Shown here: one piece after another, positions 3,214 to 63,827 of the stretch
How positions within the stretch are numbered: position 1 is the first letter of the stretch
Layout of the letters: every line of letters starts with the position of its first letter
Assembly: GCA_963642995.1 (NCBI GenBank)
Contig: CAVIIZ010000003.1
Span: forward strand, 58,492-122,491
Length of the DNA stretch: 64,000 nucleotides
Source of the DNA: a bacterium
GTDB taxonomy: Bacteria > Actinomycetota > Coriobacteriia > Coriobacteriales > QAMH01
Direction of reading: 5' to 3'
Made by a program: the position numbers and the translations under genes
Notes under the pieces: generated by a model
The model's database searches: none
What the model was told of the DNA's origin: nothing
Seen by the model: the letters and a program-made list of their open reading frames with translations, nothing else

Positions 3214-3257
3214 TGTGATAATGAATGCGGTTTTCAAAAGATGGTTTTCGAGAAAAC
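3214..3257 (+). promoter_or_regulatory. Putative extended -10 (TGTGATAAT) followed by GGTTTTC direct repeats and a GTTTTC-GA-GAAAAC palindrome
   Basis: AT-rich patch in a GC-rich background, 30-70 nt upstream of the ATG at 3286. GGTTTTC at 3229-3235 and 3243-3249; inverted repeat at 3244-3257. Confidence 0.35.
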
Positions 3258-3285: not shown

Positions 3286-4233
3286 ATGCGCAAGACGAGT
3301 GACGGGCAGGCATCGGCTTTCGGGGAGGGTGCTGCTGCGTTTGCCTGCGACGATGCGACGGACGGGCGGGCTGAAACCGGGCGGTCTGTCGTCGGGGCGC
3401 ACTCGAAGCCCGAAGTCGCGGGTGAAGGCGATGGGGCGGTGCTCGAGGCGCTTGCCCGGGCGGCGCGTGCCCAAAGGGAATCTGCGGGCTTCGGCTCCGG
3501 CGTCGAAGGGGCGCATAGCATAGGCGCCGTCCGTGACATCGGGGCGCACGGCGCAGACGCCCTCCTGAGCGAGCCTTACCCTACAAAGGAGGCCGTCCGT
3601 GACATCGGGGCGCACGGCGCAGACGCCGTCCGGGATGCCGAGACCCCTGCCGCCCCGAGGAAAAAGGCCGGGAAGCGCACGGCGATAATCGCGACCTGCG
3701 CCGTCGCGTGCCTCGTGCTGCTAGGCGCCCTCGTCTGCGTGTTCTTGTCTTCTCCCGCGCCCGGAAGCGACGCGGCGAAGACGGTGGAGAAGGCCTTGGG
3801 CAACGCGAGGTCCGCGAACAGCTCGACGATCGCGCAGCTGGTCGAAAACGACATGGGCGAGAGCTTTTCCAGATACGGCATCGACGCGGCCGCGCTGGCT
3901 TCGTGGTTGAAGGAGGACATGAGCTACACGGTGACGAAGCTGGACGAGCAGAAGAACACGGCCACCGTCACGGTGAAGGCGACCTGCCATGATTTGTCCC
4001 AGTTCCAAGAATGCGTCACCGCGGTGGCAAAGGAAGCGGCCTCCTCTGCGGATTTCCAAAACGTCACGTCGGCAGAAGACGCCTACAAGCTCATCGGCGC
4101 CAAGGCCTTCGAGCGTGCGAAAAGCGAGTCGCCGGCAAGCAAGAACTTTGAAGTGAGGGTCGTGAAGCAAGGCGAGAACTGGGAGCTGACAAGCGAGGAC
4201 GAGGCGGGCATCTTCTCGCGGCTGTGGGGGTGA
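3286..4233 (+). CDS. Hypothetical single-pass membrane protein (cytoplasmic low-complexity N-terminus, one TM, extracytoplasmic domain of about 190 aa)
   Basis: C-terminal 315 codons of track ORF 2947..4233; the upstream part overlaps tRNA-Asn and was discarded. TM segment AIIATCAVACLVLLGALVCVFL. The start site is uncertain. Confidence 0.65.
   Translation: MRKTSDGQASAFGEGAAAFACDDATDGRAETGRSVVGAHSKPEVAGEGDGAVLEALARAARAQRESAGFGSGVEGAHSIGAVRDIGAHGADALLSEPYPTKEAVRDIGAHGADAVRDAETPAAPRKKAGKRTAIIATCAVACLVLLGALVCVFLSSPAPGSDAAKTVEKALGNARSANSSTIAQLVENDMGESFSRYGIDAAALASWLKEDMSYTVTKLDEQKNTATVTVKATCHDLSQFQECVTAVAKEAASSADFQNVTSAEDAYKLIGAKAFERAKSESPASKNFEVRVVKQGENWELTSEDEAGIFSRLWG
3526..3627 (+). repeat. 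Two perfect 36-bp direct repeats (3526-3561 and 3592-3627), each encoding AVRDIGAHGADA
   Basis: Identical string gccgtccgtgacatcggggcgcacggcgcagacgcc occurs twice with a 66-bp period inside the CDS. Confidence 0.9.
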
Positions 4234-15481: not shown

Positions 15482-15955
15482 ATGGACGACAGCACGGCCA
15501 CATGCCCCATATGCGGCGAGTCCCTGCAGCCCCAGGCGGGCGAGTGCCCGCGCTGCGGCTTCAAGCTCGTGGGGAAGACCCAGGCCTTCGCCCCGGTGGA
15601 CGCGCATGGCGCCGCCGCCGTCTCGCAGCAGGCCGAGCCCGACACGGTGCCGGCGCTGGAGGTGCTGAAAGGCCCGTATGCCGGCGAGAGCTTCCGCATG
15701 GGCCTCGGCGATTTCACCATCGGACGCGACCCGTCTTGCGACCTCTTCCTCTCGAACATGACCGTCTCGCGCCATCACGCGACCATCCACGTCGACGCTT
15801 CCGGCGCGACCATCTCCGACGAGGGGTCGCTCAACGGCACCTGGGTGGACGGCAAGGTGGTCGAGCGCGCGCCGCTCGTACCCGGCACGAACGTGCAGAT
15901 AGGCACTTTCGACATGGTCTACGTGCACGCCCCCTCTCCGCGAAAGGGGGCCTGA
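15482..15955 (+). CDS. Zinc-ribbon + FHA domain protein
   Basis: N-terminal CPICG...CPRCG. C-terminal FHA (FTIGRDPSCDLFLSNMTVSRHHATI...SLNGTWVDG). It is the last 157 codons of track ORF 13919..15955. Confidence 0.88.
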   Translation: MDDSTATCPICGESLQPQAGECPRCGFKLVGKTQAFAPVDAHGAAAVSQQAEPDTVPALEVLKGPYAGESFRMGLGDFTIGRDPSCDLFLSNMTVSRHHATIHVDASGATISDEGSLNGTWVDGKVVERAPLVPGTNVQIGTFDMVYVHAPSPRKGA

Positions 15956-15966
15956 GCGAAGCGCCG

Positions 15967-17388
15967 ATGCGGTTGCCTTGCGCACATAGGGCGGCGGGGG
16001 GAAAGGGCGTGCGCGCCCGTTTCCGCGCGGCGTTTCGCGTGGGTCTCGCGCTCGTCTTGGCCTGCGCGTTCTCGCTGCCGCCGGTTGCCGCCCACGCCGC
16101 AAAGGACAGCTCGTCTGCCACGGCGGCGCAAAAGGAAGGCTCCGCGGGCTCGGCGAAGGACCCCACGGCCAAAAAGGGCGGCGCGGATTCCCCGGCGTCT
16201 GATCCGGCGTCTGAAACGGAGGGAGAAGGCGCGACGGGCGGCGCCGAGGAGGCGGGAGACGCGCGGCAATCCCCGGATGCGGCCGGTGCGGACGGCGCGC
16301 AGCCCGAGGCGCAGGAAAGCGTGCAAGAACAGCTCTCCGACGACATGCCCGCCGAGGAGCGCGAGGCCAAGCTCAAGGCGGAGGCCGAGAGCCTGAAGGG
16401 CAAGGCCGACCAGGCCGCGTCGCGCCTGACCGAGCTGGCGGGCAGCTTGGAGACTTCCTACGAGGACCTCAACCAGGTGAACCGCGACCTTGCCGACACT
16501 CAAAACGAGATCGCGGCCCTGGAGCAAAAGCTCGACGAGACCAAAAAGCGCCTCGACGAGGCGAAGACCGCGCTGGGCGCCACGGCAAAGGAGATGTATC
16601 GCACGGGCGGAGAGAGCAGCTTCATCTCCGTGCTGCTGGGCTCGACGGACTTCGACGCCTTCGTCTCGAACGCCTTCTTGCTGGGCAAGGTGGCAAGCGG
16701 CTGGGAGAGCGTCATCAACGAGGCCGGCGAGCTGTCGCGCGCCTACGCCAACCAGAAAAACCTGCTGTCCACGGCGCAGAAAAAGCAAAGCGCCCTGCAG
16801 CTGGAGGCCACGAAGAAAGGCGTCGCCGTCGCGTTGGCCATGTCGGACCAGTCGACGCTGCTGGAAAACCTCGACTCGTCCACGCTGGAGAAGGCCCGCG
16901 AGCTCGACGGGGTCACGGGTGGCAACTACGCGGCCTCCGTCGGCACGCACACGGGCGCCATCTCGGACGCCTTGTCGGCAAGCGAGAGCTGGTACAGCAA
17001 CGCGGGCGACTCCACCAGCAGGGAGGGGTCGCACCCGGCCGCCGTCGAGATAGCGCGCCGGTATCTGGGCGTGCCCTATGTGTGGGCCGGCGCCTCGCCC
17101 TCCGGCGGCTTTGACTGCTCGGGGCTGGTGCTCTACGTCTACGCGCAGCTCGGCATCGACTTGCCGCATTTCGCCCGCTCCCAATACGAGTGCGGCCAGC
17201 ACATCGCCTACAGCGCCCTCATGCCGGGCGACCTCGTGTTTTTCGGCAGCAGCGTCGAGACCATCCACCATGTGGGCATCTACATCGGCGACGGCCAGTT
17301 CATCCACGCGCCGCAGACCGGCGACGTGGTGAAGATCTCGAACCTCTCGGCCAGAAGCGACCTCATAGGCGCGTGCCGCCCGTTCTAG
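15967..17388 (+). CDS. Secreted coiled-coil NlpC/P60 peptidoglycan endopeptidase (CwlO/RipA/PcsB-like architecture)
   Basis: Signal-peptide-like N-terminus, long coiled coil (LNQVNRDLADTQNEIAALEQKLDETKKRLDEAK), C-terminal NlpC/P60 domain (YVWAGASPSGGFDCSGLV...HHVGIYIGDG). Confidence 0.9.
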   Translation: MRLPCAHRAAGGKGVRARFRAAFRVGLALVLACAFSLPPVAAHAAKDSSSATAAQKEGSAGSAKDPTAKKGGADSPASDPASETEGEGATGGAEEAGDARQSPDAAGADGAQPEAQESVQEQLSDDMPAEEREAKLKAEAESLKGKADQAASRLTELAGSLETSYEDLNQVNRDLADTQNEIAALEQKLDETKKRLDEAKTALGATAKEMYRTGGESSFISVLLGSTDFDAFVSNAFLLGKVASGWESVINEAGELSRAYANQKNLLSTAQKKQSALQLEATKKGVAVALAMSDQSTLLENLDSSTLEKARELDGVTGGNYAASVGTHTGAISDALSASESWYSNAGDSTSREGSHPAAVEIARRYLGVPYVWAGASPSGGFDCSGLVLYVYAQLGIDLPHFARSQYECGQHIAYSALMPGDLVFFGSSVETIHHVGIYIGDGQFIHAPQTGDVVKISNLSARSDLIGACRPF

Positions 17389-17477
17389 GGCCTGCGCCGC
17401 GCCCGCCGTCCGGCTCCCGCGTCCTTTCGCCGCTCCTTGCACCTGCCCTCTTTCGCGCCGCCCGCCTTTCGCGCCCC

Positions 17478-17506
17478 TTGCAAAAACCCGGCTTTGCGCC
17501 TAGGGT
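17478..17506 (+). promoter_or_regulatory. Putative promoter TTGCAA - 17 nt - TAGGGT for the second NlpC/P60 gene
   Basis: Hexamers at 17478-17483 and 17501-17506 in the 176-nt intergenic gap. Confidence 0.45.
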
Positions 17507-17512
17507 GGAGGA

Positions 17513-17535
17513 CATGCGAAAATGATTTTCACATG
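17513..17535. promoter_or_regulatory. 23-bp near-perfect palindrome CATGCGAAAAT-G-ATTTTCACATG (Zur/Fur-family-like operator)
   Basis: 11-1-11 inverted repeat with one mismatch. The core CGAAAATGATTTTCA matches 14 of 15 positions of the actinobacterial Zur box TGAAAATNATTTTCA as I recall it. It lies just downstream of the putative -10 and 30 nt before the ATG at 17565. Confidence 0.5.
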
Positions 17536-17564
17536 CAGTGCGCCCATGTCACGGAGGCGACGAG

Positions 17565-18833
17565 ATGCAAAAAACGCGACCGCACGTCCCGACCCGCATG
17601 CCCCACGCGCGCCACCTGCTTGGGGGCGCGTTCGCGTATAGGGCTCGTTTGCTGGTGAAACGGGGCGCTGCGCTTGCCTGCGCCGCGGTCTTGGCCGCCA
17701 CGCTCGCTCCGTCTGTCTCCTTCGCCGACCCCGATGCCGCGGCAAACGCCGACGGCGCCGGCCAAGACGCGGTGGAGGCGGCGGCGCAAAAACTCGCCCA
17801 GCTCTCCTCGCAGGCAGAGTCGGCCGCCGTCGCGCTCGCCTCCATAGAAAGCCGCATCGAGTCGACGAAAACCGAGATAGAGAGCACGCAAAGCGAGATC
17901 GCGGCAAAACGCGAGGAGCTGCAAGGCGCGAAGGCAAACCTCGGCGCCACGGTGCAAGAGGCCTACAAGAACGGCAGCGTGTCGTATCTGTCCGTGCTGC
18001 TCGACTCCGCAAGCTTCGAGGAGTTCTCCACGCGCTTCTACATGTTCTCCAAGATAGCGGCAAAGCGCGCCGACACCATCCAGACGGTCACCACCTTGGC
18101 AGAAGACCTCGAGAACGCCGAGGGGCGGCTTTCGGCCTCCCTCGACGAGCAGCAGCAGCTGAAGGTGCAGGCCGCCTCGAAGAAGACGGCCGCAGAGGAA
18201 AGCGTCGCCCGGCAGCAGGCCATCTTCGACAGCCTGACCGAGGAGCAAAAAGAGGCGGTGAACGCGCGCAACGACGTCGTTGCCCTGGATGCGGGCGCGA
18301 CGGACGGCGCGGAGCGCAGCGTCCAAGGCGCGCAAGACGCCGACGCAGGCGGTGCGCAGGACAGCTGGGTTGCGCCCGCCCCGCAGCAGGAGACCCATGT
18401 CGCGCCGGCTCCTTCCCATGACGAGGCGGCAGATGCCGGCGGCTCGGATGCGGGGTCTGCTTCGGGGTCCGGCTCGGGGTCGGGCGGCGGCCAGGCGGCG
18501 GTGGACGTGGCCTTGGGGTATCTGGGCGTGCCCTATGTGTGGGGCGGCACCACGCCGTCCGGCTTCGATTGCTCCGGGCTCATGCAATATTGCTTCAGGC
18601 AGGTGGGCATCTCCATCAGCCGCGTCTCCTCGAGCCAGTACTACGACGGCACCCCCGTCTCGCGCTCGGACCTGCAGCCGGGCGACATGGTCTTTTTCGG
18701 CAGCGACATCCATCACGTCGGCATGTACATAGGCGACGGCCTCTACGTGCACGCCCCGCGCACGGGCGATGTGGTGAAGGTGTCGAGCCTGTCTTCGCGG
18801 GGCGACTACTTCGGCGCCTGCCGCGTCTGGTGA
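17565..18833 (+). CDS. Secreted coiled-coil NlpC/P60 peptidoglycan endopeptidase (paralog of 15967..17388)
   Basis: GGAGG 7 nt upstream of the ATG. Coiled coil (IESRIESTKTEIESTQSEIAAKREELQ). C-terminal YVWGGTTPSGFDCSGLM...HHVGMYIGDG. Confidence 0.9.
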   Translation: MQKTRPHVPTRMPHARHLLGGAFAYRARLLVKRGAALACAAVLAATLAPSVSFADPDAAANADGAGQDAVEAAAQKLAQLSSQAESAAVALASIESRIESTKTEIESTQSEIAAKREELQGAKANLGATVQEAYKNGSVSYLSVLLDSASFEEFSTRFYMFSKIAAKRADTIQTVTTLAEDLENAEGRLSASLDEQQQLKVQAASKKTAAEESVARQQAIFDSLTEEQKEAVNARNDVVALDAGATDGAERSVQGAQDADAGGAQDSWVAPAPQQETHVAPAPSHDEAADAGGSDAGSASGSGSGSGGGQAAVDVALGYLGVPYVWGGTTPSGFDCSGLMQYCFRQVGISISRVSSSQYYDGTPVSRSDLQPGDMVFFGSDIHHVGMYIGDGLYVHAPRTGDVVKVSSLSSRGDYFGACRVW

Positions 18834-19038
18834 GCGGGGCGCGCGCGACACGCTCCACACCATCTCGCCCCATCGCAAAAGGCCGCGCATGGCGCCCGCG
18901 AAACCTTTTCCTCAGTGGGTTCGGAAGGCGCCGCGATGCGCCCCGTGTGCCGCGCGGGCGCCGCCTTGCACGTCTGCGCGGGTTCATCTGCGCTAGTATA
19001 GGAGGGCTTGACGTTTTCGAGAAAGGACAAGCCCGCCC

Positions 19039-20676
19039 ATGCCGGTCACCGATTACCTGCGCCGCAACGCCGCCGCGCGTCCGGGCGATGTGGCGCTCGT
19101 GGAGATAAACCCGAAGCTGCGCGAGCGCCGCGCCGTCACGTGGCGCGACTACGACCTCATCCAGCCCACGGACACCGTGGCCTACCGCCGCGAGATCACC
19201 TGGAAGGTCTTCGACGAGAAGGCCAACCGTTTCGCCAACCTCTTGATCGAGCGCGGCGTCGGCAAGGGCGACCGCGTGGCCATATTGCTGATGAACTGCC
19301 TGGAATGGCTGCCCATCTACTTCGGCGTCCTGAAAAGCGGGGCATGCGCCGTGCCGCTGAACTTTCGCTACACCGGCGCCGAGATCGACTATTGCGTGCA
19401 CAAGGCCGAGGTGGACGTGCTCGTGTTCGGGCCTGAGTTCACGGGGCGCGTCGAGGAGGTCGCCGCCTCCATCCAGCCGCACCGCCTGCTCTTCTACGTG
19501 GGCGAGGACTGCCCGAGCTTCGCGGAGAGCTACCGCGAGCTGGCCGCGAACTGCTCGTCTGCCGACCCGCAGGTGCCCATCTCCGAAGACGACGACGCGG
19601 CCATCTACTACTCCTCGGGCACGACGGGCTTTCCCAAGGCCATCCTGCATCCGCACCGCTCGCTTTCCCAGGCCGCCGAAATGGAGCAGGCCCACCACGG
19701 GCAGACCGCAGACGACGTCTTTCTGTGCATCCCGCCCCTCTACCACACGGGCGCGAAGATGCACTGGATGGGCAGCCTCATATCCGGCTCGCGCGCCGTG
19801 CTCTTGCGCGGGGTCGACCCGCAGACCATATTGCAGACCGTCAGCTCGGAGCGCTGCACCATCGTGTGGCTGCTCGTGCCCTGGGCCCAAGACATGCTCG
19901 CAGGCCTCGAGTCGGGAAGCATCGACCTGTCGGATTACGCGCTTTCCCAATGGCGCCTCATGCACATCGGCGCCCAGCCCGTCCCGAAGAGCCTGGTCGA
20001 GCGCTGGCGGCGCTTTTTCCCGAATCACCAATACGACACGAACTACGGCCTGTCCGAGTCCACGGGGCCGGGCTGCGTGCACCTGGGCGTGGACAACATC
20101 GAGCATGCGGGTGCGATCGGCGTGCCGGGCCACCGCTGGGAGGCGAAGGTCGCCCGCGAGGACGGGACCGAGCTTGCGGACGGCGAGGTGGGCGAGCTGT
20201 GGGTGAAGGGGCCGGGCGTCATGCGCTGCTACTACAACGACCCGAAGGCCACCGCAGAGGTCCTGCGCGACGGCTGGCTGCTCACAGGCGATATGGCCTA
20301 CCGCGACGACGAGGGGTTCTTCTGGCTCGTGGACCGCAAGAAGGACGTGATCATCTCCGGCGGCGAGAACATCTACCCCGTGCAGGTGGAGAATTTCCTG
20401 GCGGCGCACCCGGCTGTCAAAGACGTCGCCGTCATAGGCATGCAAGACGCGCGCCTGGGCGAGGTGGCGGCCGCCATCGTCGAGCTGAAGCCGGGGTTTG
20501 AGGACGTGGACGAGGCGGCCATCGACGATTTCTGCCTGGGGCTGCCGCGCTACAAGCGGCCGCGCCGGGTGATATTCGCCGACGTGCCGCGCAACGCGAC
20601 GGGCAAGATAGAAAAACCGCTGCTGCGGCGCACCTACGACGCGGAGCGGCTCGTGGACAGGGAAAACCGCGCCTGA
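19039..20676 (+). CDS. AMP-dependent acyl-CoA synthetase/ligase (class I adenylate-forming)
   Basis: YSSGTTGFPKA, TGDMAYRDDEGFFWLVDRKKD and GKIEK motifs. Confidence 0.9.
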   Translation: MPVTDYLRRNAAARPGDVALVEINPKLRERRAVTWRDYDLIQPTDTVAYRREITWKVFDEKANRFANLLIERGVGKGDRVAILLMNCLEWLPIYFGVLKSGACAVPLNFRYTGAEIDYCVHKAEVDVLVFGPEFTGRVEEVAASIQPHRLLFYVGEDCPSFAESYRELAANCSSADPQVPISEDDDAAIYYSSGTTGFPKAILHPHRSLSQAAEMEQAHHGQTADDVFLCIPPLYHTGAKMHWMGSLISGSRAVLLRGVDPQTILQTVSSERCTIVWLLVPWAQDMLAGLESGSIDLSDYALSQWRLMHIGAQPVPKSLVERWRRFFPNHQYDTNYGLSESTGPGCVHLGVDNIEHAGAIGVPGHRWEAKVAREDGTELADGEVGELWVKGPGVMRCYYNDPKATAEVLRDGWLLTGDMAYRDDEGFFWLVDRKKDVIISGGENIYPVQVENFLAAHPAVKDVAVIGMQDARLGEVAAAIVELKPGFEDVDEAAIDDFCLGLPRYKRPRRVIFADVPRNATGKIEKPLLRRTYDAERLVDRENRA

Positions 20677-32479: not shown

Positions 32480-32515
32480 CATCCGGTGCAGGAAAAGGTA
32501 GTGGGAAGGGCCGGC

Positions 32516-34558
32516 ATGTCGGAAATCGAGAAGATGGATTTGGAGTCGAAAGACTTGGTTGCCGAGCGCATAGAGCAGCTGAGGCAGCTGCTGCCCGAGG
32601 CGTTCGGCGAAGACGGCATCGACTTCGAGAAGCTGCGCCTGCTGCTGGGCGACGAGGTCGAAGATGGATCGGAGCGCTACGCCTTCACGTGGCCCGGCAA
32701 AATGAACGCCATCCGCCAATCGCAGACGCCGAGCACGGCGACGCTGCGTCCAAACGTGGAGAAGTCCCGTGGCCGCGACGGCGAAGACGGCAGCTTCGAC
32801 TCCGACAACATCTACATTGAGGGTGATAACCTTGAGGCGATGAAGCTGTTGTTGCGTGCATACCACGCTTCGTTCGATTTGATTTATTTCGATCCCCCGT
32901 ACAACACCGGAAAAGATTTTATTTATCCTGATACTTTCGGAGATTCTATTGCGAATTACAAACAGCAAGCTGGTCTAATTGGGCAGTCGAATGCACCCAC
33001 TGCTGGCCGTTTCCACTCCTCTTGGTGTACGACCCTATACCCGCGCTTACGGCTTGCTAGAGAGTTGCTTTCCGATACTGGCGCATTGGTTATCAGCATC
33101 GGGGTACAAGAGATTGAAAATCTTCTAAGGCTCTGTGGCGAAATATTTCCCGACAAACAGGTTGTTCCAATCACTGTTCAGACATCCGGAGGTAAGCCTT
33201 CAGGTGGATTCAATCTCTTGCATGAGTACCTTTTGTTTGTAGTTGATGAGGAATTTCAAGCCAATCGAATTAGCCGTTTTGGCGGTGCGCAGAGGAGCCC
33301 GTTCGAAGGTCTTCCTCTGAGTACGTTTAACAAGATTCAGCGCCCTAATCAAGCATATCCCATTTTTATCAACCCAGATACTCTGACTATTGCAGGTGTA
33401 GGAAAGTCGCTAGCGGAGAGAATCAACGACGGGTCGTATCAAGGCATCAAAGGCGACTTTAAATATGATTTTACCGAGGCGCCTTCTGGCACTATTGCGA
33501 TTTGGCCTTATACGGCAAAAGGAAAAGAGTGCATTTGGCGATTGAAGCCTGACCGCTTGTTGTCTGACTGGGAGAAAGGCTATATAAAAGTCTCTTCCAA
33601 CGTTTATGACTCATGCCCTAACGCTTTTAGCCTTCAGTACCTTCCTGATGGAGTAATTAAAAAGGTCGAGAGTGGGCAGCTTCCTGTTGTCGGAGTTGAG
33701 GCAAATGGCAAAACGTTAGTTTTTGGTGAAAACAAAACAGCAGGCGCGCAAATTCCATCAATGCTTGCTGAAAAGGACTATCAAACAGTAAAAGGAACAA
33801 GCCAGCTTAAAGATTTATTTGGCACCGATCAGTCGCCATTTGATTATCCAAAACCTCTTGATCTAATCAAAGACATAATTGGCCTTACGACGACCGATTG
33901 CGCCCGAGTGCTTGATTTTTATTCAGGGTCTGCAACTACGGCGCATGCCTGTATGGTGACGGATTTTGAAAATTCCGAAAATCGACACTGGGTAATGATG
34001 CAGCTTCCGAGCGCCTGCGACCCTGATTCTCCAGCAGCCTCTATGGGGTTTGAGAACATATGCCAGGCAGGTGAACAACGAATTCGATTAGCTGGTGAAG
34101 ATTTAATTGGTTTATGCGAAGAAGCCAACCGTCAACCCAAGCTTAACGAGGAGCCTAAGCAGCTTCCAGATATCGGCTTCCGCGTGTTCGAGCTCGACGA
34201 ATCAGGCATCGAAAAACCTGAGCCTGGCAAGCTTGTGCTCGACGTCGTGAAGCCCGACCGCTCCGAGCTCGATATCGTCTTCGAGATGATGCTGAAGTGG
34301 GGTCTGGAGCTCACGTTGCCCGTGGAGAAAACCGAGGCAGCGGGCTATCCCATCTGGTCCGTTGACCACGACGAGCTCATCTGCTGCATGAAACGCGGCC
34401 TTACCACACAGACGTTTGAGGCCATCGCCGAAATGGAGCCGCGCCGCGTGCTCATCTTGGACTCCGTGCTCGACGACACGTTGAAGCTCAACGCCGTGCA
34501 GATCTTCAAGCACGCGCAGGAGCGCTGCGGCCACGAGATCGAATTGAGGACGCTCTAG
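32516..34558 (+). CDS. mod: Type III restriction-modification system methyltransferase subunit (Mod), beta-class N6-adenine type
   Basis: Motif IV FDPPYNTG precedes the variable region, and motif I-like VLDFYSGSATTAHA follows (beta order). C-terminus FRVFELDESG... is typical of Type III Mod. Central ~1.3 kb is markedly lower in GC. Start ATG 32516 (alternative GTG 32486). Confidence 0.9.
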   Translation: MSEIEKMDLESKDLVAERIEQLRQLLPEAFGEDGIDFEKLRLLLGDEVEDGSERYAFTWPGKMNAIRQSQTPSTATLRPNVEKSRGRDGEDGSFDSDNIYIEGDNLEAMKLLLRAYHASFDLIYFDPPYNTGKDFIYPDTFGDSIANYKQQAGLIGQSNAPTAGRFHSSWCTTLYPRLRLARELLSDTGALVISIGVQEIENLLRLCGEIFPDKQVVPITVQTSGGKPSGGFNLLHEYLLFVVDEEFQANRISRFGGAQRSPFEGLPLSTFNKIQRPNQAYPIFINPDTLTIAGVGKSLAERINDGSYQGIKGDFKYDFTEAPSGTIAIWPYTAKGKECIWRLKPDRLLSDWEKGYIKVSSNVYDSCPNAFSLQYLPDGVIKKVESGQLPVVGVEANGKTLVFGENKTAGAQIPSMLAEKDYQTVKGTSQLKDLFGTDQSPFDYPKPLDLIKDIIGLTTTDCARVLDFYSGSATTAHACMVTDFENSENRHWVMMQLPSACDPDSPAASMGFENICQAGEQRIRLAGEDLIGLCEEANRQPKLNEEPKQLPDIGFRVFELDESGIEKPEPGKLVLDVVKPDRSELDIVFEMMLKWGLELTLPVEKTEAAGYPIWSVDHDELICCMKRGLTTQTFEAIAEMEPRRVLILDSVLDDTLKLNAVQIFKHAQERCGHEIELRTL

Positions 34559-34590
34559 CGGGCGGGAGCGGACGCGATTGCAAGAGGGTC

Positions 34591-34599
34591 TGTTAGAAT
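34591..34599 (+). promoter_or_regulatory. Possible internal extended -10 promoter (TGTTAGAAT) in the mod-antitoxin gap
   Basis: The only AT-rich hexamer in the 83-nt gap, 43 nt upstream of the antitoxin ATG. No good -35 at 17-nt spacing. Confidence 0.3.
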
Positions 34600-34641
34600 G
34601 TGGGAAAGTTGGAAATTTCAAGTGCTGAGAGGCTGCGAAAG

Positions 34642-34884
34642 ATGGTTGCAACGTTGAAAGCGAAGTCGCAGGTGACGATCCCCGCAAACGTCGTCAGGGA
34701 AGCAGGGCTTCGGACAGGCGACGCATTCGACGTCGTCTACAGGGACGGGAGCATCGTGCTGACCCCGGTCGTGTACGTCTCGAGAAAGGACGCCGAGGCG
34801 CTCGGGTTTGCGCAGGACATGGACGCGCGCTACGAGCGGATGCTCCAAGGCGACCATATCCGGCACGACCTTGTCGAAGGGTAG
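34642..34884 (+). CDS. AbrB/MazE/SpoVT-fold type II antitoxin
   Basis: SQVTIPANVVREAGLRTGDAFDVVYRDGSIVLTPV is a swapped-hairpin AbrB-type signature. It lies immediately upstream of a toxin gene. Alternative start GTG 34600. Confidence 0.8.
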   Translation: MVATLKAKSQVTIPANVVREAGLRTGDAFDVVYRDGSIVLTPVVYVSRKDAEALGFAQDMDARYERMLQGDHIRHDLVEG

Positions 34885-34889
34885 GCGGG

Positions 34890-35147
34890 ATGGAGCTGCA
34901 ATGGTCGCCTGAAGCCTGGGACGAGTACCTGTCGTGGCGGACGGAGGACAGGAAGACGCTGAAGCGCATAAACGCCTGTGTCAAATCGATTCAGCGGGAC
35001 GGAAAGCCAATCGGAAAATCCGAGCTGCTCAAAGGGTCGAGACACGGGCTGCGCAGCGTGCGCATCGACGCGAGGAACCGGCTGGTCTACAAAATCGACG
35101 AGCATGTCGTGAGGATAGTTTCCTGCAGGGGGCGCTACGATGGCTAG
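34890..35147 (+). CDS. yoeB: YoeB/Txe-family type II toxin (ribosome-dependent mRNA interferase family)
   Basis: 85 aa, colinear with my memory of E. coli YoeB (WSPEAWDEYLSW...KRIN..V..I.R....GKSELLK...RSVRI...NRLVYKI....V.IVSCR.RY). The stop TAG overlaps the res start. Confidence 0.82.
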   Translation: MELQWSPEAWDEYLSWRTEDRKTLKRINACVKSIQRDGKPIGKSELLKGSRHGLRSVRIDARNRLVYKIDEHVVRIVSCRGRYDG

Positions 35148-38100
35148 CGGAAAGCTCGAGTTCAAATTCTCGTCGGACCAGCGCCACCAGACCGAGGCCA
35201 TCGAGGCCACCTGCAACCTGTTCAAGGGGCAACAGTTCATCAGCAGCTCGTTCACTGCCGCTACCTACAAGGGCGAGGGGCTCTTTGCTGATGGCGAAGT
35301 CCTGAGCGTCGGCCACGGCAACGACGTGCGCGTGACGCCCGGGCAGCTGTTGGAGAACCTGCACGCCGTGCAGGAGGACAACTGCCTGCCGCCCACCGAC
35401 GAGCTCACCGACGGGCGCCTGCGCGATTTCACCATCGAGATGGAGACGGGCACGGGCAAGACCTATGTCTACATCCGCAGCATCTACGAGCTGAATCGCC
35501 GCTACGGCCTCACCAAGTTCGTCATCGTGGTGCCCAGCATCGCCATCCGCGAGGGCGTGCTGAAGAGCTTCCAGACCATGAAGAAGCACTTCGACACGCT
35601 CTACGACAACACGCCGCTCGACTATTTCGTGTACGACTCGAAGGACATGGGGCCTGTCGGCAACTTCGCCACGTCCAGCTCCATCCAGGTGATGGTCATC
35701 AACATCGACGCCTTCAACAAGGGTCTGGACAAGGACGGCACGGCCAAGGAGGGCAACCTGTTCCACCGTGCCAGCGAGAAGCTTGTCGGCGGACGCAGCC
35801 CGCGCGAGCTGGTGAGCGAGTGCAAGCCCATCGTCATCATCGACGAGCCGCAAAGCGTCGACAACACCAAGCAGGCCAAGGCCGCCATCAAGAGCCTGAG
35901 CCCGCTGTTCGTGCTGCGCTACTCGGCCACGCACAAGACGGCCTACAACATGATCTACCGCCTCACGCCCGTGGACGCCTTCGAGCGCAACCTGGTCAAG
36001 GGCATCTGCGTGGACTCCGTCAGGGCCGACACCGACCTGAACGGCGCCTACGTGCGATTGGAGTCCGTGAAGGCCAACCCCTTCAGCGCGAAGCTCACCA
36101 TCGACGTGCGCCGGGCCGACGGCACGCAAAAGCGCAAGGCCGTCGCCGTGAAGACCGGCGCCGACCTCTACGAGAAGAGCAACGAGAACACCGACTACGA
36201 GGCCGGTTGGATCGTGAGCAACATAGGCACCGCCGCGGGCGACGAGTTCGTCGAGTTCCAAAACGGGGAGGTGCTCGAGCTGGGCGAGGCTTTGGGCGAC
36301 GTTGCCGATGAGGCCGTGAAGCGCGCGCAGATCCGCCGCACCATCGAGAATCACCTGGCCCGCCAGCTCGAGCTGTGGCCGCGCGGCGTGAAGGTGCTGA
36401 GCCTGTTCTTCGTCGACCGGGTGGACAAGTACCGCGTCTACGAGCCCGAGGTCCACGGCGGCGAATACGCGCAGGTCTTCGAGGGCGAATATGCCGACCT
36501 GCTTGAGACGAAGGCGCCGAGGCGCGTCGCCAAGGCCGCGGGCCTGGGCAAGGGCACGTGGCGCGAGTGCTACGAGGCTGTGGGTGCGCCGTTGGTGCGC
36601 GACCCTTCCGCCGTGCACCAGGGCTACTTCGCAAAAGACAAGAAGGGCAAGTTCAAGGACTCCAAGGGCGCGGCCGGCACTGCAGACGATGCGGGCGCGT
36701 TCGAGCTGATCATGCAGAAGAAGGAGACGCTCGTCTCCTTTCCGGACGGCAAGGACGCCGACAAGGACGTGTCGTTCATCTTCAGCCACTCCGCGCTCAA
36801 GGAGGGCTGGGACAACCCCAACGTCTTTCAAATCTGCACGCTGGTGGAGACCAAAGACACCCTCACCAAACGCCAGAAAATCGGCCGCGGCCTGCGCCTG
36901 TGCGTGAACCAAGACGGCGAGCGCCTGCACGATCCGGAGGCCAACGTGCTCACCGTCATCGCCAACGAAAGCTATGAGGAATTCGCCAACGGCCTGCAAA
37001 AGGAGCTCGAGGCCGAGGATTTCAGGTTCGGCATCATCACGCCCGAAAGCTTCACCAAAGTCGTCATCGAGGACGAGAGCGGCAACGAGCAGCGCTTGGG
37101 CTACGAGCGTTCCAGGCAGGTGTACGACCATTTCGTGGCCACCGGCATGGTGGACTCCAAGGGCGCGGTGAAGCCCGGGCTGAAGACCGCCGCGCAGGAG
37201 GGCAGGGTCGAGCTTCCCGAGGAGCTTGCGGCGGCCAAGGAGGCCGTCGAGGCCATCATCATCCACAAGTCGCAGAAAGTGCCCATCCGCGACAAGAAGC
37301 AGGAGGTCTCGGTCGAGCTGCAGAAGGACGTCACGCTGCACCCGGCGTTCCAGGAACTGTGGAACCGCATCCGCCAGCGCACGCGCTTCGAGGTGGAGGT
37401 GGACTCCGACAAGCTCGTCGAGCAGAGCATCGAGGCCATCGACGGCATGTTGAAGGTCACGCGCCCGAAGATTTCAAGCGAGCGCGCCGACCTCGACGTG
37501 AGCGATGCGGGCGTGACCGCCGAGGGCACGGGGACCTCCTCCATCAACATCGCGAGCGCGGTCGACTACGACCTGCCCGACCCGATTGCCGAGCTGCAAG
37601 ACGCCGTGGGCCTCACGCGCGCGACGCTGAAGGCCATCTTGGAGGGCTGCAGCCGTTTCGACGAGTTCAAGGTGAACCCGGCGACGTTTCTGGCGCAGGT
37701 GGGCGAGAAGATCGACAAGGTGAAGACGAGCCTTATCGCCAGAGGCGTCAAGTACGTGCGCCTGCCCGAGGACGAGTGGTACACCATGAGCGACCTGGAG
37801 CTGGACGACTTCACCGCGTACCTGGGCCAAAACGCCTGGAAGCCCGAGGTGTCCGACAAGAGTCTGTACAACTACGTCGTCTACGATTCCGCAGGCGTCG
37901 AGCGCTCGTTTGCCGAGGCCCTCGACAAACAAGACGAGGTGCTGGTGTTCGCCAAGCTGCCCTCGTCGTTCAAAATCGACACGCCGCTTGGCAGCTACAA
38001 CCCCGACTGGGCCTACGTCGAGGAGACAGACGGCGAGCACCGTGTCTACTTCGTCACCGAGACCAAGGGCGGCAAAAACGGAGAGCCCAACCTGCGCGAC

Positions 38101-38208
38101 GCCGAGAAGCTGAAAATCGAGTGTGCCGAGAAGCACTTCGAGGCGCTGGGCCTCGAGGATTTCGAGTACAAGGTGCGCACAACGTACCGTTTTGCGCGTG
38201 TCGTCTAG
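35140..38208 (+). CDS. res: Type III restriction endonuclease subunit (Res), SF2 helicase + PD-(D/E)xK nuclease
   Basis: N-terminus F.F....HQ..AIEA..NLF as in EcoP15I Res. METGTGKTYVY (motif I), VIIDEPQSV (motif II). C-terminal YNPDWAYVEE...YFVTETKG nuclease-like motif. Confidence 0.92.
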   Translation: MASGKLEFKFSSDQRHQTEAIEATCNLFKGQQFISSSFTAATYKGEGLFADGEVLSVGHGNDVRVTPGQLLENLHAVQEDNCLPPTDELTDGRLRDFTIEMETGTGKTYVYIRSIYELNRRYGLTKFVIVVPSIAIREGVLKSFQTMKKHFDTLYDNTPLDYFVYDSKDMGPVGNFATSSSIQVMVINIDAFNKGLDKDGTAKEGNLFHRASEKLVGGRSPRELVSECKPIVIIDEPQSVDNTKQAKAAIKSLSPLFVLRYSATHKTAYNMIYRLTPVDAFERNLVKGICVDSVRADTDLNGAYVRLESVKANPFSAKLTIDVRRADGTQKRKAVAVKTGADLYEKSNENTDYEAGWIVSNIGTAAGDEFVEFQNGEVLELGEALGDVADEAVKRAQIRRTIENHLARQLELWPRGVKVLSLFFVDRVDKYRVYEPEVHGGEYAQVFEGEYADLLETKAPRRVAKAAGLGKGTWRECYEAVGAPLVRDPSAVHQGYFAKDKKGKFKDSKGAAGTADDAGAFELIMQKKETLVSFPDGKDADKDVSFIFSHSALKEGWDNPNVFQICTLVETKDTLTKRQKIGRGLRLCVNQDGERLHDPEANVLTVIANESYEEFANGLQKELEAEDFRFGIITPESFTKVVIEDESGNEQRLGYERSRQVYDHFVATGMVDSKGAVKPGLKTAAQEGRVELPEELAAAKEAVEAIIIHKSQKVPIRDKKQEVSVELQKDVTLHPAFQELWNRIRQRTRFEVEVDSDKLVEQSIEAIDGMLKVTRPKISSERADLDVSDAGVTAEGTGTSSINIASAVDYDLPDPIAELQDAVGLTRATLKAILEGCSRFDEFKVNPATFLAQVGEKIDKVKTSLIARGVKYVRLPEDEWYTMSDLELDDFTAYLGQNAWKPEVSDKSLYNYVVYDSAGVERSFAEALDKQDEVLVFAKLPSSFKIDTPLGSYNPDWAYVEETDGEHRVYFVTETKGGKNGEPNLRDAEKLKIECAEKHFEALGLEDFEYKVRTTYRFARVV

Positions 38209-62657: not shown

Positions 62658-63431
62658 GTGGCACCGGCGCTTCTCATATCGCTTCTCGCAGGCGCGACCA
62701 TCGTGCTCGGCGGCCTTGTCGTGCGCCTCTCGCGCGGGGCGCGGCGCATCGAGCACTTCTCCATCGCGCTCGCCGCAGGCTCCATGCTCGCGCTGCTCGC
62801 CTTCGACTTGGGCCCGGAGCTTTTCGAGGGTCTTGCCGAAGGGGCCTGCGTGCAGGTCGCCGTGGGTCTTGTCGCGGGGTTTGCCGGCCTCGTGGCCCTC
62901 GACAGGGCCATCCCCGACCACGAAGGGGTCGCAGCCGGCCGCGCGCACGACGGCGCCGCCGGCCATGCGCACGACGGGAACACGCACGACGGCAACGCGG
63001 CGCACATAGGCATCATCTCGGCTGTCGCCATCGCCTTGCACAACGTCGTCGAGGGCATGGCCGTCTACAGCGTCGCGCTCTCCTCGCCGGCCGACGGCGC
63101 CCTCTACGCATTCGCCATCGCCTTGCACAACGTTCCCGTCGGGATGCTGCTCTTTTCCACGCTGGAGAAAAGCCGCCCCTCCACACGCCGGGCCGCCGTC
63201 GCCGCCGTCACCTTCTCCACTTTCGCGGGCGGCCTTCTCATGGCGGCGCTTGCGCAGGCGGTGCCCGAGGCGGTCATGGTCTTTTTCGTCGCGGCCGCCG
63301 CGGGCATGATCTGCTACATACTCGTCATGGAGCTGGCCGGCCGCCTCGCGCGCAGCCGCCCGGTCTGGGTGTCTGCCGCAGGATGCGCCGCCGGCTTCCT
63401 CATCGTGCTCGTGGCGTCGTTTCTCGGATAG
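62658..63431 (+). CDS. ZIP-family divalent metal (zinc) transporter
   Basis: Multiple TMs. Paired HNVVEGMAVY / ALHNVPVGM motifs. His-rich loop HDGAAGHAHDGNTHDGN. GTG start. Confidence 0.85.
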   Translation: MAPALLISLLAGATIVLGGLVVRLSRGARRIEHFSIALAAGSMLALLAFDLGPELFEGLAEGACVQVAVGLVAGFAGLVALDRAIPDHEGVAAGRAHDGAAGHAHDGNTHDGNAAHIGIISAVAIALHNVVEGMAVYSVALSSPADGALYAFAIALHNVPVGMLLFSTLEKSRPSTRRAAVAAVTFSTFAGGLLMAALAQAVPEAVMVFFVAAAAGMICYILVMELAGRLARSRPVWVSAAGCAAGFLIVLVASFLG

Positions 63432-63446
63432 GAGGAAGAGGGGTCT

Positions 63447-63827
63447 ATGGTGAAGGTGACGGACGAGGAGTTCGACGCGATGGTCTCGGATGCCATCGAC
63501 TCGATTCCCGGGGAGTTTCTCGACGAGCTCGACAACGTGGTCTTCCTCGTGGAAGACGAGCCGAGCGCCCAACAGGTCGCAGACGACATCGCCGACGGCG
63601 GCACGGGCGAGATGCTGGGCCTGTACTCCGGGGTGAACATCTACGAGCGCGGCGACTGCTACGACGGGGACCTGCCCGACAGCATCACCATCTTCAAAGG
63701 CCCGCACGAGCGCATGTGCGAAAGCGCCGCCGAGCTGGCCGAGGAGGTGCGCCGCAGCGTCGTGCACGAGGTGGGGCATTACTTCGGCATGGACGAGGCC
63801 CAAGTCGACGAGATGGGCTATGCCTGA
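63447..63827 (+). CDS. Small metallopeptidase-family protein (DUF1025-like, HExxH)
   Basis: 126 aa, VHEVGHYFG zinc motif near the C-terminus, acidic N-terminal half. Confidence 0.8.
   Translation: MVKVTDEEFDAMVSDAIDSIPGEFLDELDNVVFLVEDEPSAQQVADDIADGGTGEMLGLYSGVNIYERGDCYDGDLPDSITIFKGPHERMCESAAELAEEVRRSVVHEVGHYFGMDEAQVDEMGYA

What the first reader, a model, noticed from the sequence alone, without database searches (positions are those of the whole stretch)
17478..17565. Zur/Fur-family-like 23-bp palindrome operator between a promoter and the second NlpC/P60 hydrolase gene
Seen: CATGCGAAAAT-G-ATTTTCACATG (17513-17535) is an 11-1-11 inverted repeat with one mismatch. It is AT-rich in a GC-rich genome. 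It lies just downstream of a TTGCAA-17-TAGGGT promoter candidate and 30 nt upstream of the ATG. Established (from memory): actinobacterial Zur operators are 7-1-7 palindromes close to TGAAAATNATTTTCA, and the core here (CGAAAATGATTTTCA) matches 14 of 15 positions. Inference: one of two tandem cell-wall endopeptidase paralogs may be metal (zinc) regulated. This would resemble the Zur-controlled alternative paralogs known for ribosomal proteins. No similar box precedes the ZIP transporter at 62658.
Basis: partly seen in the sequence, partly recalled or inferred. Interest (0 to 1): 0.55.

Follow-up and report, generated by a model that had tools for sequence, protein, structure and literature searches.

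The report
Zur-like operator before a wall hydrolase
A short mirror-image DNA sequence at the start of a cell-wall-cutting enzyme gene in an uncultured gut actinobacterium matches a proven mycobacterial zinc-repressor binding site, so the gene may switch on when zinc is scarce; sister species lack the site and no zinc gene could be linked to it.

Summary
CATGCGAAAATGATTTTCACATG (17513-17535) is an 11-1-11 inverted repeat with one mismatch. It lies 6 nt after a TTGCAA-17-TAGGGT promoter and 29 nt before the ATG of a CwlO-type NlpC/P60 gene.

As a bare palindrome it is not unusual. As a Zur box it is: the 15-bp core equals the core of the validated M. tuberculosis Rv2058c operator. It scores at the 83rd percentile of 72 published actinobacterial Zur sites. 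No such score occurred in 300 simulated windows or in 1 Mb of real high-GC DNA.

A second, independent Zur-type box (3219-3239) overlaps the likely -10 of another envelope gene. This suggests that this Coriobacteriales organism has a regulator of this specificity.

Against this:
- The box is species-specific. A second strain keeps it with two changes; three sister clades and four distant orthologues do not.
- The 21-bp flanks do not fit the consensus.
- No zur or zinc-uptake gene could be examined.
- Both paralogues are metal-independent, so the comparison with ribosomal paralogues is weak.

A 5'-terminal mRNA hairpin is a serious rival and could coexist. Verdict: probable (about 0.45) Fur-family operator, a new member of a known kind, of moderate interest.

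The parts
17478..17483 (+). -35 hexamer TTGCAA of the NlpC/P60-2 promoter
   Evidence: Sequence read. Invariant in 8 distinct orthologous leaders. TTGCAW-17-TAnnnT is also present in the distant orthologues L089, L091, L092 and L093.
17501..17506 (+). -10 hexamer TAGGGT, 17-nt spacer from the -35. The predicted transcription start is about 17512-17514 (inferred, not mapped).
   Evidence: The consensus scanner did not list it because TAGGGT matches only 3 of 6 positions of TATAAT. Conservation is the evidence.
17513..17535 (.). 11-1-11 inverted repeat CATGCGAAAATGATTTTCACATG. Proposed operator, and in the transcript a 5'-proximal hairpin.
   Evidence: RNA hairpin energy is -4.9 kcal/mol here and -10.4 in the second strain.
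17517..17531 (.). 15-bp 7-1-7 core CGAAAATGATTTTCA, a Zur-type Fur-family box
   Evidence: One mismatch to TGAAAATNATTTTCA. Identical to the core of the M. tuberculosis Rv2058c site. Position-weight-matrix (PWM) score 20.4, the 83rd percentile of 72 sites. Never reached in controls.
17553..17557 (+). Shine-Dalgarno GGAGG, 7 nt before the ATG
   Evidence: invariant block GGAGGCG.
17565..18833 (+). NlpC/P60-2: signal peptide, PcsB-like coiled coil and C-terminal NlpC/P60 domain (CwlO-type DL-endopeptidase), 422 aa
   Evidence: Pfam. A 100% identical protein is in the database. Synteny is conserved.
15967..17388 (+). NlpC/P60-1, the tandem paralogue (34% identical), co-oriented behind an FHA/zinc-ribbon gene (15482-15955) and with its own upstream promoter region
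3219..3239 (.). Second Zur-type box TAATGAATGCGGTTTTCAAAA, overlapping a putative extended -10 TGtGATAAT (3214-3222)
   Evidence: 21-bp PWM score 15.7, inside the range of published sites (14.5-31.0). Reached in 0 of 300 simulated windows. Rate 0.05 per Mb in random 66.5% GC sequence. Sequence read.
3286..4233 (+). Gene downstream of the second box: a 315-aa membrane-anchored protein of unknown function
   Evidence: weak DUF5105 match only; no relative with a solved structure.

Best explanation
The palindrome is most likely the operator of a Fur-family metalloregulator with actinobacterial Zur specificity. It was recruited in this one species to the promoter of the second CwlO-type NlpC/P60 endopeptidase. 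The 7-1-7 core CGAAAATGATTTTCA lies about +4 to +18 relative to the start predicted from the conserved TTGCAA-17-TAGGGT promoter. A metal-loaded repressor dimer, or adjacent dimers covering the 23-bp repeat, would occupy the start region and block open-complex formation or promoter escape. Loss of the metal (zinc, by analogy) would release it and induce the hydrolase. Shown: the sequence, its exceptional score against published Zur sites, the conserved promoter, the second box, and the lack of conservation outside the species. Inferred: the transcription start, the existence of the regulator, zinc as the signal, and repression as the outcome. The same bases form a 5'-proximal hairpin in the mRNA, which may act as well.
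For: The consensus is confirmed in the literature: TGAAAATGATTTTCA (PMC2823685), tGaNNatSatNNtCa (PMC5472717), and signature G/C pairs at positions 2, 8 and 14 (PMC9371925). All three signature positions are present here. The core is identical to that of the known Zur-regulated Rv2058c rpmB2 operon site TgtcGAAAATGATTTTCAaTA. A PWM built from 72 published sites gives a core score of 20.4 (83rd percentile). It is the top hit in the window, and the next best scores 11.1. Controls: 0 of 300 Markov windows reach it. No position in 1.01 Mb of real DNA of at least 60% GC exceeds 10.7. The rate is at most 0.1 per Mb in random sequence even at 40-55% GC. The promoter is invariant in 8 orthologous leaders, which places the box at the start site. 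A second strain of the species (99.93% nucleotide identity) keeps the box. Its two changes fall at positions 4 and 15, which are weakly conserved in the published motif, and the score of 14.3 is still within the range of true sites. The independent second box at 3219-3239 (21-bp score 15.7, 0 of 300 simulations) overlaps a likely -10. The organism is Coriobacteriales, phylum Actinomycetota; the published motif spans actinobacterial orders including Bifidobacterium. The AT-rich arms in a 66.5% GC genome suit protein recognition better than a stable RNA stem. Zur control of a peptidoglycan endopeptidase has precedent in V. cholerae ShyB (PMC6381278).
Against: The box fails the cross-species consistency check. 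Clades A, B and C (72-82% protein identity) score 4.6, -1.3 and -4.7 despite near-identical promoters, and the distant orthologues have unrelated sequences there. The flanks ATG/CAT do not match TAA/TTA, so the 21-bp score (11.3) is below the published minimum (14.5). No Fur-family gene is present in the window or in any held contig. No canonical zinc gene could be examined, and the ZIP gene has no box. Neither predicted target has a known link to metal, and both paralogues are metal-independent cysteine peptidases. The relatives already carry GAAAA...TTTTC, so few changes were needed to create the match. I estimate a few per cent chance under a hairpin constraint (my reasoning, not a computed result). 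Two of the 5 SNPs between the strains fall in the 23 bp, which does not look like strong purifying selection.
Confidence: 0.45

Rival explanations
1. A 5'-terminal mRNA stem-loop. The repeat matters as RNA: it forms a hairpin at the very 5' end of the leader and protects the transcript from 5'-end-dependent decay or tunes translation. The likeness to a Zur box is a by-product of A/U-rich arms. This could coexist with the operator reading.
For: The hairpin begins at the predicted start site. In the second strain both SNPs keep or improve pairing on the sense strand (A-U to G-U, and C.A to C-G), giving a perfect 10-bp stem of -10.4 kcal/mol, z = -4.6. Distant orthologues carry unrelated hairpins at the same place: L089 has 11 bp (z = -2.95), L091 a 5-bp GC stem with a GCAA loop (z = -1.8), and L092 and L093 also have them. 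When the helix is mapped on the 8 close leaders, 78.8% of cells pair, against 30-57% for slid controls, with ten G-U cells that fit only the sense RNA. The two clade A variants keep a 5-bp stem plus a tetraloop despite a shifted loop.
Against: RNAalifold predicts no conserved helix there, and no pair shows a double-sided compensatory change. 108 of 500 shuffles do as well. Leader folds of the window and of clades A-C are no better than shuffles (z from -0.2 to +1.4). The A-U stems in clades A-C are too weak to be plausible stabilisers in a 66% GC organism. There is no Rfam match. This reading does not explain the exact identity to a validated Zur core, nor the second box.
Confidence: 0.25
2. 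An operator for a different dimeric regulator, for example a cell-envelope regulator, that recognises GAA-N7-TTC. These are the only positions kept in the window and in clades B and C. The Zur resemblance would be partial overlap of motifs.
For: G, A, A and T, T, T(C) are invariant at fixed distance from the promoter across saturated divergence. Both predicted targets are envelope proteins, in a region rich in wall enzymes.
Against: No known motif fits. By my own comparison from memory, Rex (GAA-N4-TTC), CRP (TGTGA-N6-TCACA), ArgR, cre, LexA and CodY all fail on spacing or bases. Clade A has N8. The centres differ in every clade. Three-base half-sites carry little information.
Confidence: 0.1
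3. No function. This is a weakly constrained spacer between promoter and Shine-Dalgarno in which a quasi-palindrome was perfected by template switching or drift, and it happens to read as a Zur box.
For: This is the least conserved part of the leader. Palindromes of this size are at the chance level. Two of 5 inter-strain SNPs lie in it, and 4 of 5 lie within 17520-17778, which suggests a recombination tract or relaxed constraint. One copying of the left arm would turn the clade A right arm TTTTCCCTG into TTTTCGCATG, as seen in L084 (my inference).
Against: Scores of this size were never seen in 1 Mb of real high-GC DNA or in simulations. If a Zur of this specificity exists, a consensus core at the start site would be bound whatever its origin. 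GAA and TTTC are conserved beyond neutral expectation.
Confidence: 0.2

Closest known systems
Actinobacterial Zur operators, especially M. tuberculosis Rv2058c (rpmB2-rpmG2-rpsN2-rpsR2) and the S. coelicolor consensus TGAAAATGATTTTCA
   Same: The 15-bp 7-1-7 core is identical to the Rv2058c site core. G/C pairs are at positions 2, 8 and 14. It is an AT-rich box in a GC-rich genome and overlaps the core promoter or start region.
   Different: The flanks are GC-containing CATG...CATG instead of TAA...TTA. The target is a cell-wall hydrolase, not zinc uptake, COG0523 or a ribosomal paralogue. The host is Coriobacteriales, where I found no described Zur regulon in the papers searched. The site is not conserved in sister species.
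Zur-regulated peptidoglycan endopeptidase ShyB of Vibrio cholerae (PMC6381278)
   Same: One of several redundant peptidoglycan endopeptidases is placed under a Zur box and induced by zinc starvation (title and abstract).
   Different: From my own knowledge, ShyB is an M23 metallopeptidase that keeps working at low zinc and backs up zinc-requiring paralogues. Here both paralogues are NlpC/P60 cysteine peptidases, so no zinc-sparing logic applies between them. The phylum and the box sequence also differ.
CwlO of Bacillus subtilis (coiled coil plus NlpC/P60)
   Same: Same domain architecture: PcsB-type coiled coil and NlpC/P60. Several sources name homologues CwlO.
   Different: From my own knowledge, cwlO is controlled by WalR and by an unstable leader, and the enzyme is activated by FtsEX. 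None of this was tested here, and no FtsEX genes were identified in the window.
5'-terminal stem-loops that stabilise bacterial mRNAs (from my own knowledge)
   Same: A hairpin starts within a few nucleotides of the predicted 5' end, and orthologues carry hairpins of different sequence at the same place.
   Different: There is no statistical support for a conserved structure in the closest relatives. The stems there are weak and A-U rich.

Membership tests
Zur-type Fur-family operator (actinobacterial Zur box) | 7-1-7 inverted repeat matching TGAAAATGATTTTCA / tGaNNatSatNNtCa | tested here: met
   14 of 15 positions match. PWM score 20.4, the 83rd percentile of 72 published sites.
Zur-type Fur-family operator (actinobacterial Zur box) | Signature G/C pairs at positions 2, 8 and 14 | tested here: met
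   G17518, G17524 and C17530. Criterion from PMC9371925.
Zur-type Fur-family operator (actinobacterial Zur box) | Extended 21-bp palindrome with TAA...TTA flanks | tested here: not met
   The flanks are ATG...CAT. The 21-bp score of 11.3 is below the minimum of the published set, 14.5.
Zur-type Fur-family operator (actinobacterial Zur box) | Overlaps the core promoter or transcription start of the regulated gene | tested here: inconclusive
   The box lies 10 nt after a conserved -10, so about +4 to +18. The start site is predicted, not mapped.
Zur-type Fur-family operator (actinobacterial Zur box) | Same motif upstream of canonical zinc genes (znuABC, COG0523/yciC, C-minus ribosomal paralogues, zur) in the same genome | not testable with these tools
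   Only 64 kb of the genome is held, and its proteins are not in the contig index. Within the window there is a second box, but before an uncharacterised membrane protein, and none before the ZIP gene.
Zur-type Fur-family operator (actinobacterial Zur box) | A Zur/Fur-family regulator encoded by the organism | not testable with these tools
   None in the window or in the held contigs of relatives (Pfam; tblastn). The rest of the genome is unavailable.
Zur-type Fur-family operator (actinobacterial Zur box) | Site conserved before orthologous genes in related genomes (the consistency check used in PMC2823685) | tested here: not met
   Kept only in a second strain of the same species (score 14.3). 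Clades A, B and C score 4.6, -1.3 and -4.7. L089, L091, L092 and L093 have nothing similar. Clade A is one single-base deletion away from a box scoring 12.7.
Zur-type Fur-family operator (actinobacterial Zur box) | Zinc-dependent binding and zinc-dependent expression | not testable with these tools
   Requires gel shift or footprinting and expression measurements.
Structured 5' leader RNA (conserved stem-loop) | Helix supported by covariation across orthologues | tested here: inconclusive
   78.8% of cells pair, against 30-57% when slid. However, there are 0 double-sided changes, 108 of 500 shuffles do as well, and RNAalifold predicts no helix.
Structured 5' leader RNA (conserved stem-loop) | Thermodynamically unusual hairpin at the 5' end | tested here: inconclusive
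   As 38-nt leader segments: L084 z = -2.1, L089 z = -2.95, L091 z = -1.8; the window and clades A-C lie between 0 and +1.1. As 23-mers alone: window z = -3.1, L084 z = -4.6.
Known RNA families (Rfam 15) | Match to a curated covariance model | tested here: not met
   No hit at the gathering score in the window apart from 4 tRNAs, and none at E-value up to 1 in 17380-17620.

The most novel reading that the evidence does not exclude
A Coriobacteriales gut bacterium has placed a CwlO-type NlpC/P60 peptidoglycan endopeptidase under zinc (Zur) control. As far as the searched literature shows, this would be the first cysteine-type wall hydrolase in a Zur regulon. The operator arose within a single species through a few base changes, including run-length changes in A4/T4 tracts, in a pre-existing leader hairpin. 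One sequence would then act both as DNA operator and as RNA 5' stem-loop.
Probability: 0.35. Interest if true: 0.55.

Novelty: new member of a known kind. Interest (0 to 1): 0.4.

Why it matters
If true, it extends zinc-starvation control of cell-wall remodelling to Gram-positive Actinomycetota and to a metal-independent enzyme class. So far this control is shown for an M23 endopeptidase in Vibrio. It would also give the first handle on a Zur regulon in Coriobacteriales, common but little-studied gut bacteria that meet host-imposed zinc limitation. In addition, it offers a clean natural example of how an operator is gained or lost. The promoter is identical across sister species that carry a consensus box, a box broken by a single extra base, or no box. 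If false, it warns that a perfect match to a consensus can arise in a leader hairpin.

Tried and rejected
1. Looking up the window's own gene products to reach the rest of the genome failed. Both start variants and the 100% identical database protein are not in the contig index.

2. The genome-collection scan returned only 3 close loci, in bins labelled as Firmicutes that are probably mis-binned. The metagenome scan with an orthologue alignment returned no close orthologue, only domain-level NlpC/P60 hits. PWM hits there occurred only in contigs of 33-43% GC.

3. Palindrome statistics showed that the repeat alone is not unusual, so that argument was dropped.

4. An intrinsic terminator was rejected. 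There is no U-tract, the element lies downstream of the promoter, and the scanner found only an unrelated minus-strand candidate.

5. Known RNA families: none.

6. Other operator families (Rex, CRP/GlxR, ArgR, cre, LexA, CodY, Nur, and B. subtilis Fur, PerR and Zur boxes) were compared from memory. They were rejected on spacing or bases. The B. subtilis Fur box fits 11 of 14 positions, worse than actinobacterial Zur at 13 of 14.

7. A leaderless mini-ORF (ATG CGA AAA TGA at 17514) was considered. The ATG is not conserved (ATA or ACG in other clades), so I did not pursue it.

8. GAAAAC/GTTTTC half-sites are too frequent in coding DNA to mean anything.

9. Searches for a Fur-family gene in the window and in all held DNA were negative.

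10. Literature searches for Zur in Coriobacteriia or Eggerthella, and for NlpC together with 'Zur regulon', found nothing relevant.

11. The protein behind the second box has no informative family or solved relative.
Full report
OBSERVATION

The sequence is as described. CATGCGAAAATGATTTTCACATG occupies 17513-17535 and is an 11-1-11 inverted repeat with one mismatch, C17517 against A17531. TTGCAA (17478-17483), a 17-nt spacer and TAGGGT (17501-17506) precede it. GGAGG (17553-17557) and the ATG at 17565 follow. The window has 66.5% G+C. The gene 17565-18833 encodes a signal peptide, a PcsB-type coiled coil and an NlpC/P60 domain. The gene before it (15967-17388) has the same architecture and is 34% identical. 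The closest named ClpP relatives, at 84-87% identity, are all Coriobacteriales. A distant orthologous locus sits beside DMSO-reductase-type genes. The organism is therefore an uncultured member of the Coriobacteriia, phylum Actinomycetota.

IS IT MORE THAN CHANCE?

As a palindrome, no. The window holds 11 inverted repeats of 11-(0-3)-11 with at most one mismatch, and Markov simulations give 7.8 on average. AT-rich 13-mers occur in about 20 places outside a foreign restriction-modification island.

As a match to a motif defined beforehand, yes. PMC2823685 quotes the S. coelicolor Zur footprint consensus as the 7-1-7 repeat TGAAAATGATTTTCA. It also reports one conserved 21-bp motif across actinobacterial orders, including Bifidobacterium and Propionibacterium. 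PMC5472717 gives the ChIP motif tGaNNatSatNNtCa. PMC9371925 names the G/C pairs at positions 2, 8 and 14 as the signature.

The core here, CGAAAATGATTTTCA, has all three signature pairs and 14 of 15 consensus positions. It is identical to the core of the M. tuberculosis Rv2058c (rpmB2 operon) site TgtcGAAAATGATTTTCAaTA, which is listed as a known Zur target.

I built a position weight matrix (PWM) from the 72 sites in that paper's Additional file 1. The results were:
- The core scores 20.4, the 83rd percentile of the published sites. The next best position in the window scores 11.1.
- A score of 20.4 was never reached in 300 Markov versions of the window.
- It occurs at no more than 0.1 per Mb in random sequence of 40-66.5% GC.
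- In 1.01 Mb of real DNA of at least 60% GC, fetched for other reasons, the maximum was 10.7.

The weak point is the flanks. With ATG and CAT instead of TAA and TTA, the 21-bp score is 11.3, below the lowest published site at 14.5.

A SECOND BOX

The 21-bp matrix put another site first in the window: TAATGAATGCGGTTTTCAAAA at 3219-3239. Its score of 15.7 lies within the published range. It was reached in 0 of 300 simulations and has a rate of 0.05 per Mb at this composition.

This box overlaps TGtGATAAT (3214-3222), a plausible extended -10. It lies 47 nt before the ATG of a 315-aa membrane-anchored protein of unknown function.

Two such sites in 64 kb, both in promoter regions, are hard to ascribe to chance. 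They are my main reason to think that the organism has a regulator of this specificity. If it has, a consensus core at a start site should be bound however it arose. Neither target has an evident link to zinc. The ZIP transporter gene at 62658 has no box.

COMPARISON WITH ORTHOLOGUES

I recovered the orthologous leader from these sources:
- a second strain of the species (L084);
- sister clade A (L001/L082, L081, L085/86, L087/88; 75-82% protein identity);
- clade B (L002/L083; 72%) and clade C (L003; 72%);
- four distant orthologues with the same gene order (L089/L090, L092, L093, L091; 39-49%).

In the close set, the promoter CCCTTGCAAAAAyCCnnnTTTGnGCnTAGGGT, the block TGCAnnGCGC and the ribosome-binding region are almost invariant. 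The stretch holding the palindrome is the most variable part. Clade A reads GCGAAAAACGGTTTTCC or GCGAAAACGGTTTTTCC, clade B GTGAAGCAAAATTTCGC, and clade C GAGAACCTACATTTCAC. Only G-A-A and T-T-T(C) stay fixed. PWM core scores are 4.6, -1.3 and -4.7, all below the published minimum of 7.7. The box therefore fails the cross-species consistency check that the authors of the motif use.

Two details soften this. Both clade A variants are a single one-base deletion, in an A or T run, away from CGAAAACGGTTTTCC. That sequence would score 12.7, within the true-site range. An ancestral box broken by run-length change is therefore possible. In addition, the second strain keeps the box at score 14.3, and its two changes fall at motif positions 4 and 15, which are weakly conserved.

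THE TWO STRAINS

The window and L084 differ at 5 of 7,274 positions. Two of these, 17520 A>G and 17531 A>G, lie in the 23-bp repeat, and four lie within 17520-17778. The expectation for the repeat is 0.016 SNPs, so clustering is real (about 1e-4 by my binomial estimate). A short recombination tract would explain most of it. This pattern does not indicate strong purifying selection on the site.

THE RNA RIVAL

The repeat starts where transcription is predicted to start. In L084 both changes keep or improve pairing on the sense strand: A-U becomes G-U, and the C.A mismatch becomes C-G. The result is a perfect 10-bp stem of -10.4 kcal/mol with z = -4.6. The window's own stem is -4.9 kcal/mol with z = -3.1.

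The distant orthologues have unrelated hairpins just after their -10 elements. L089 has 11 bp (z = -2.95), L092 has 8 bp, L093 has a GC stem, and L091 has a GC stem with a GCAA loop (z = -1.8). When the helix is mapped on the eight close leaders, 78.8% of cells pair, against 30-57% for slid controls. This includes ten G-U cells.

Against the RNA reading:
- There is not one double-sided compensatory change, and 108 of 500 shuffles do as well.
- RNAalifold predicts no helix there.
- The leaders of the window and of clades A-C fold no better than shuffles.
- The A-U stems of clades A-C are very weak for a 66% GC organism.
- No Rfam family matches.

The RNA reading explains neither the identity to a validated operator nor the second box. 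It remains a serious alternative and may coexist with the operator reading.

MECHANISM AND BIOLOGY

The best-supported reading is a Fur-family, Zur-type repressor bound at about +4 to +18, which blocks initiation and is released when its metal is scarce. The promoter position is inferred from conservation. The regulator, the metal and the direction of control are inferred by analogy.

NlpC/P60 enzymes are cysteine peptidases, so neither paralogue spares zinc. The nearer precedent is the Zur-controlled endopeptidase ShyB of V. cholerae (PMC6381278). Any benefit here would have to involve other, zinc-dependent wall enzymes that were not identified.

The neighbourhood is rich in wall genes:
- a polysaccharide deacetylase;
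- VanW;
- an S11 carboxypeptidase;
- an FHA protein with a zinc ribbon, heading the NlpC/P60-1 operon;
- a ricin-repeat GH25 muramidase.

WHAT COULD NOT BE DONE

The rest of the genome could not be reached. No Fur-family gene lies in any held DNA. No paper in the library links Zur to Coriobacteriia or to NlpC/P60.

VERDICT

- Observation: confirmed.
- Interpretation: partly supported.
- Fur-family operator of Zur type: about 0.45.
- RNA 5' stem-loop alone: 0.25.
- Another regulator: 0.10.
- No function: 0.20.

This is a new member of a known kind. Interest is moderate (0.4).

Noticed in passing
window 3219-3239 (and 3244-3257): A second strong match to the actinobacterial Zur matrix, TAATGAATGCGGTTTTCAAAA. 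It overlaps a putative extended -10 before a 315-aa membrane-anchored protein (3286-4233). It is followed by a perfect 6-2-6 palindrome, GTTTTCGAGAAAAC.
   Followed up: partly
window 4353-~7380, minus strand: A large secreted protein with ten ricin-type beta-trefoil repeats and a C-terminal GH25 muramidase domain. My first GC3-based gene call missed it because the open frame runs on to 9356.
   Followed up: partly
L081 2934-7779; L082 2673-8930; L083 3031-9084; L085/L086 4475-7320: Sister clades A and B carry an ORF of 2,017-2,085 aa without any Pfam hit between NlpC/P60-2 and the AMP-ligase gene. It is absent from the window (206-nt gap, 18833-19039) and from the distant orthologous loci.
   Followed up: no
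L003 5625-5830: Tandem duplication of the NlpC/P60-2 promoter, with copies 155 bp apart. Between them lies a remnant that looks like the 3' end of an NlpC/P60 gene (GCATGTGCCGCCCGTTCTAG). About 58 nt after the first copy are masked as N in the collection.
   Followed up: no
window 17520-17778 versus L084: Four of the only five differences between two strains over 7.3 kb cluster in 259 bp, at the leader and 5' end of NlpC/P60-2. The changes at 17772 and 17778 alter two residues (V to M, A to T). This suggests a short recombination tract or diversifying selection.
   Followed up: partly
window 15482-15955: A 157-aa protein with an N-terminal CxxC...CxxC zinc ribbon and an FHA domain heads the operon with NlpC/P60-1. 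This gene order (S11 carboxypeptidase, FHA, NlpC/P60-1, NlpC/P60-2, AMP-ligase, oxidoreductase) is kept in distant relatives.
   Followed up: no
window 32486-38208: A type III restriction-modification system. The methylase gene has GC3 of 0.57 against about 0.9 elsewhere, so it is probably recently acquired. A MazE-like antitoxin lies at 34597-34884.
   Followed up: no
L001, L002, L003 (record titles): The three closest genome-collection loci (61-69% GC) sit in bins named Ruthenibacterium, Oscillibacter and Acidaminococcaceae. These are probably mis-binned Coriobacteriales contigs.
   Followed up: no
window 62658-63827: The ZIP transporter gene is followed directly by a Zincin_1 (PF06262) metallopeptidase-like gene. 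Neither has a Zur-type box upstream.
   Followed up: partly
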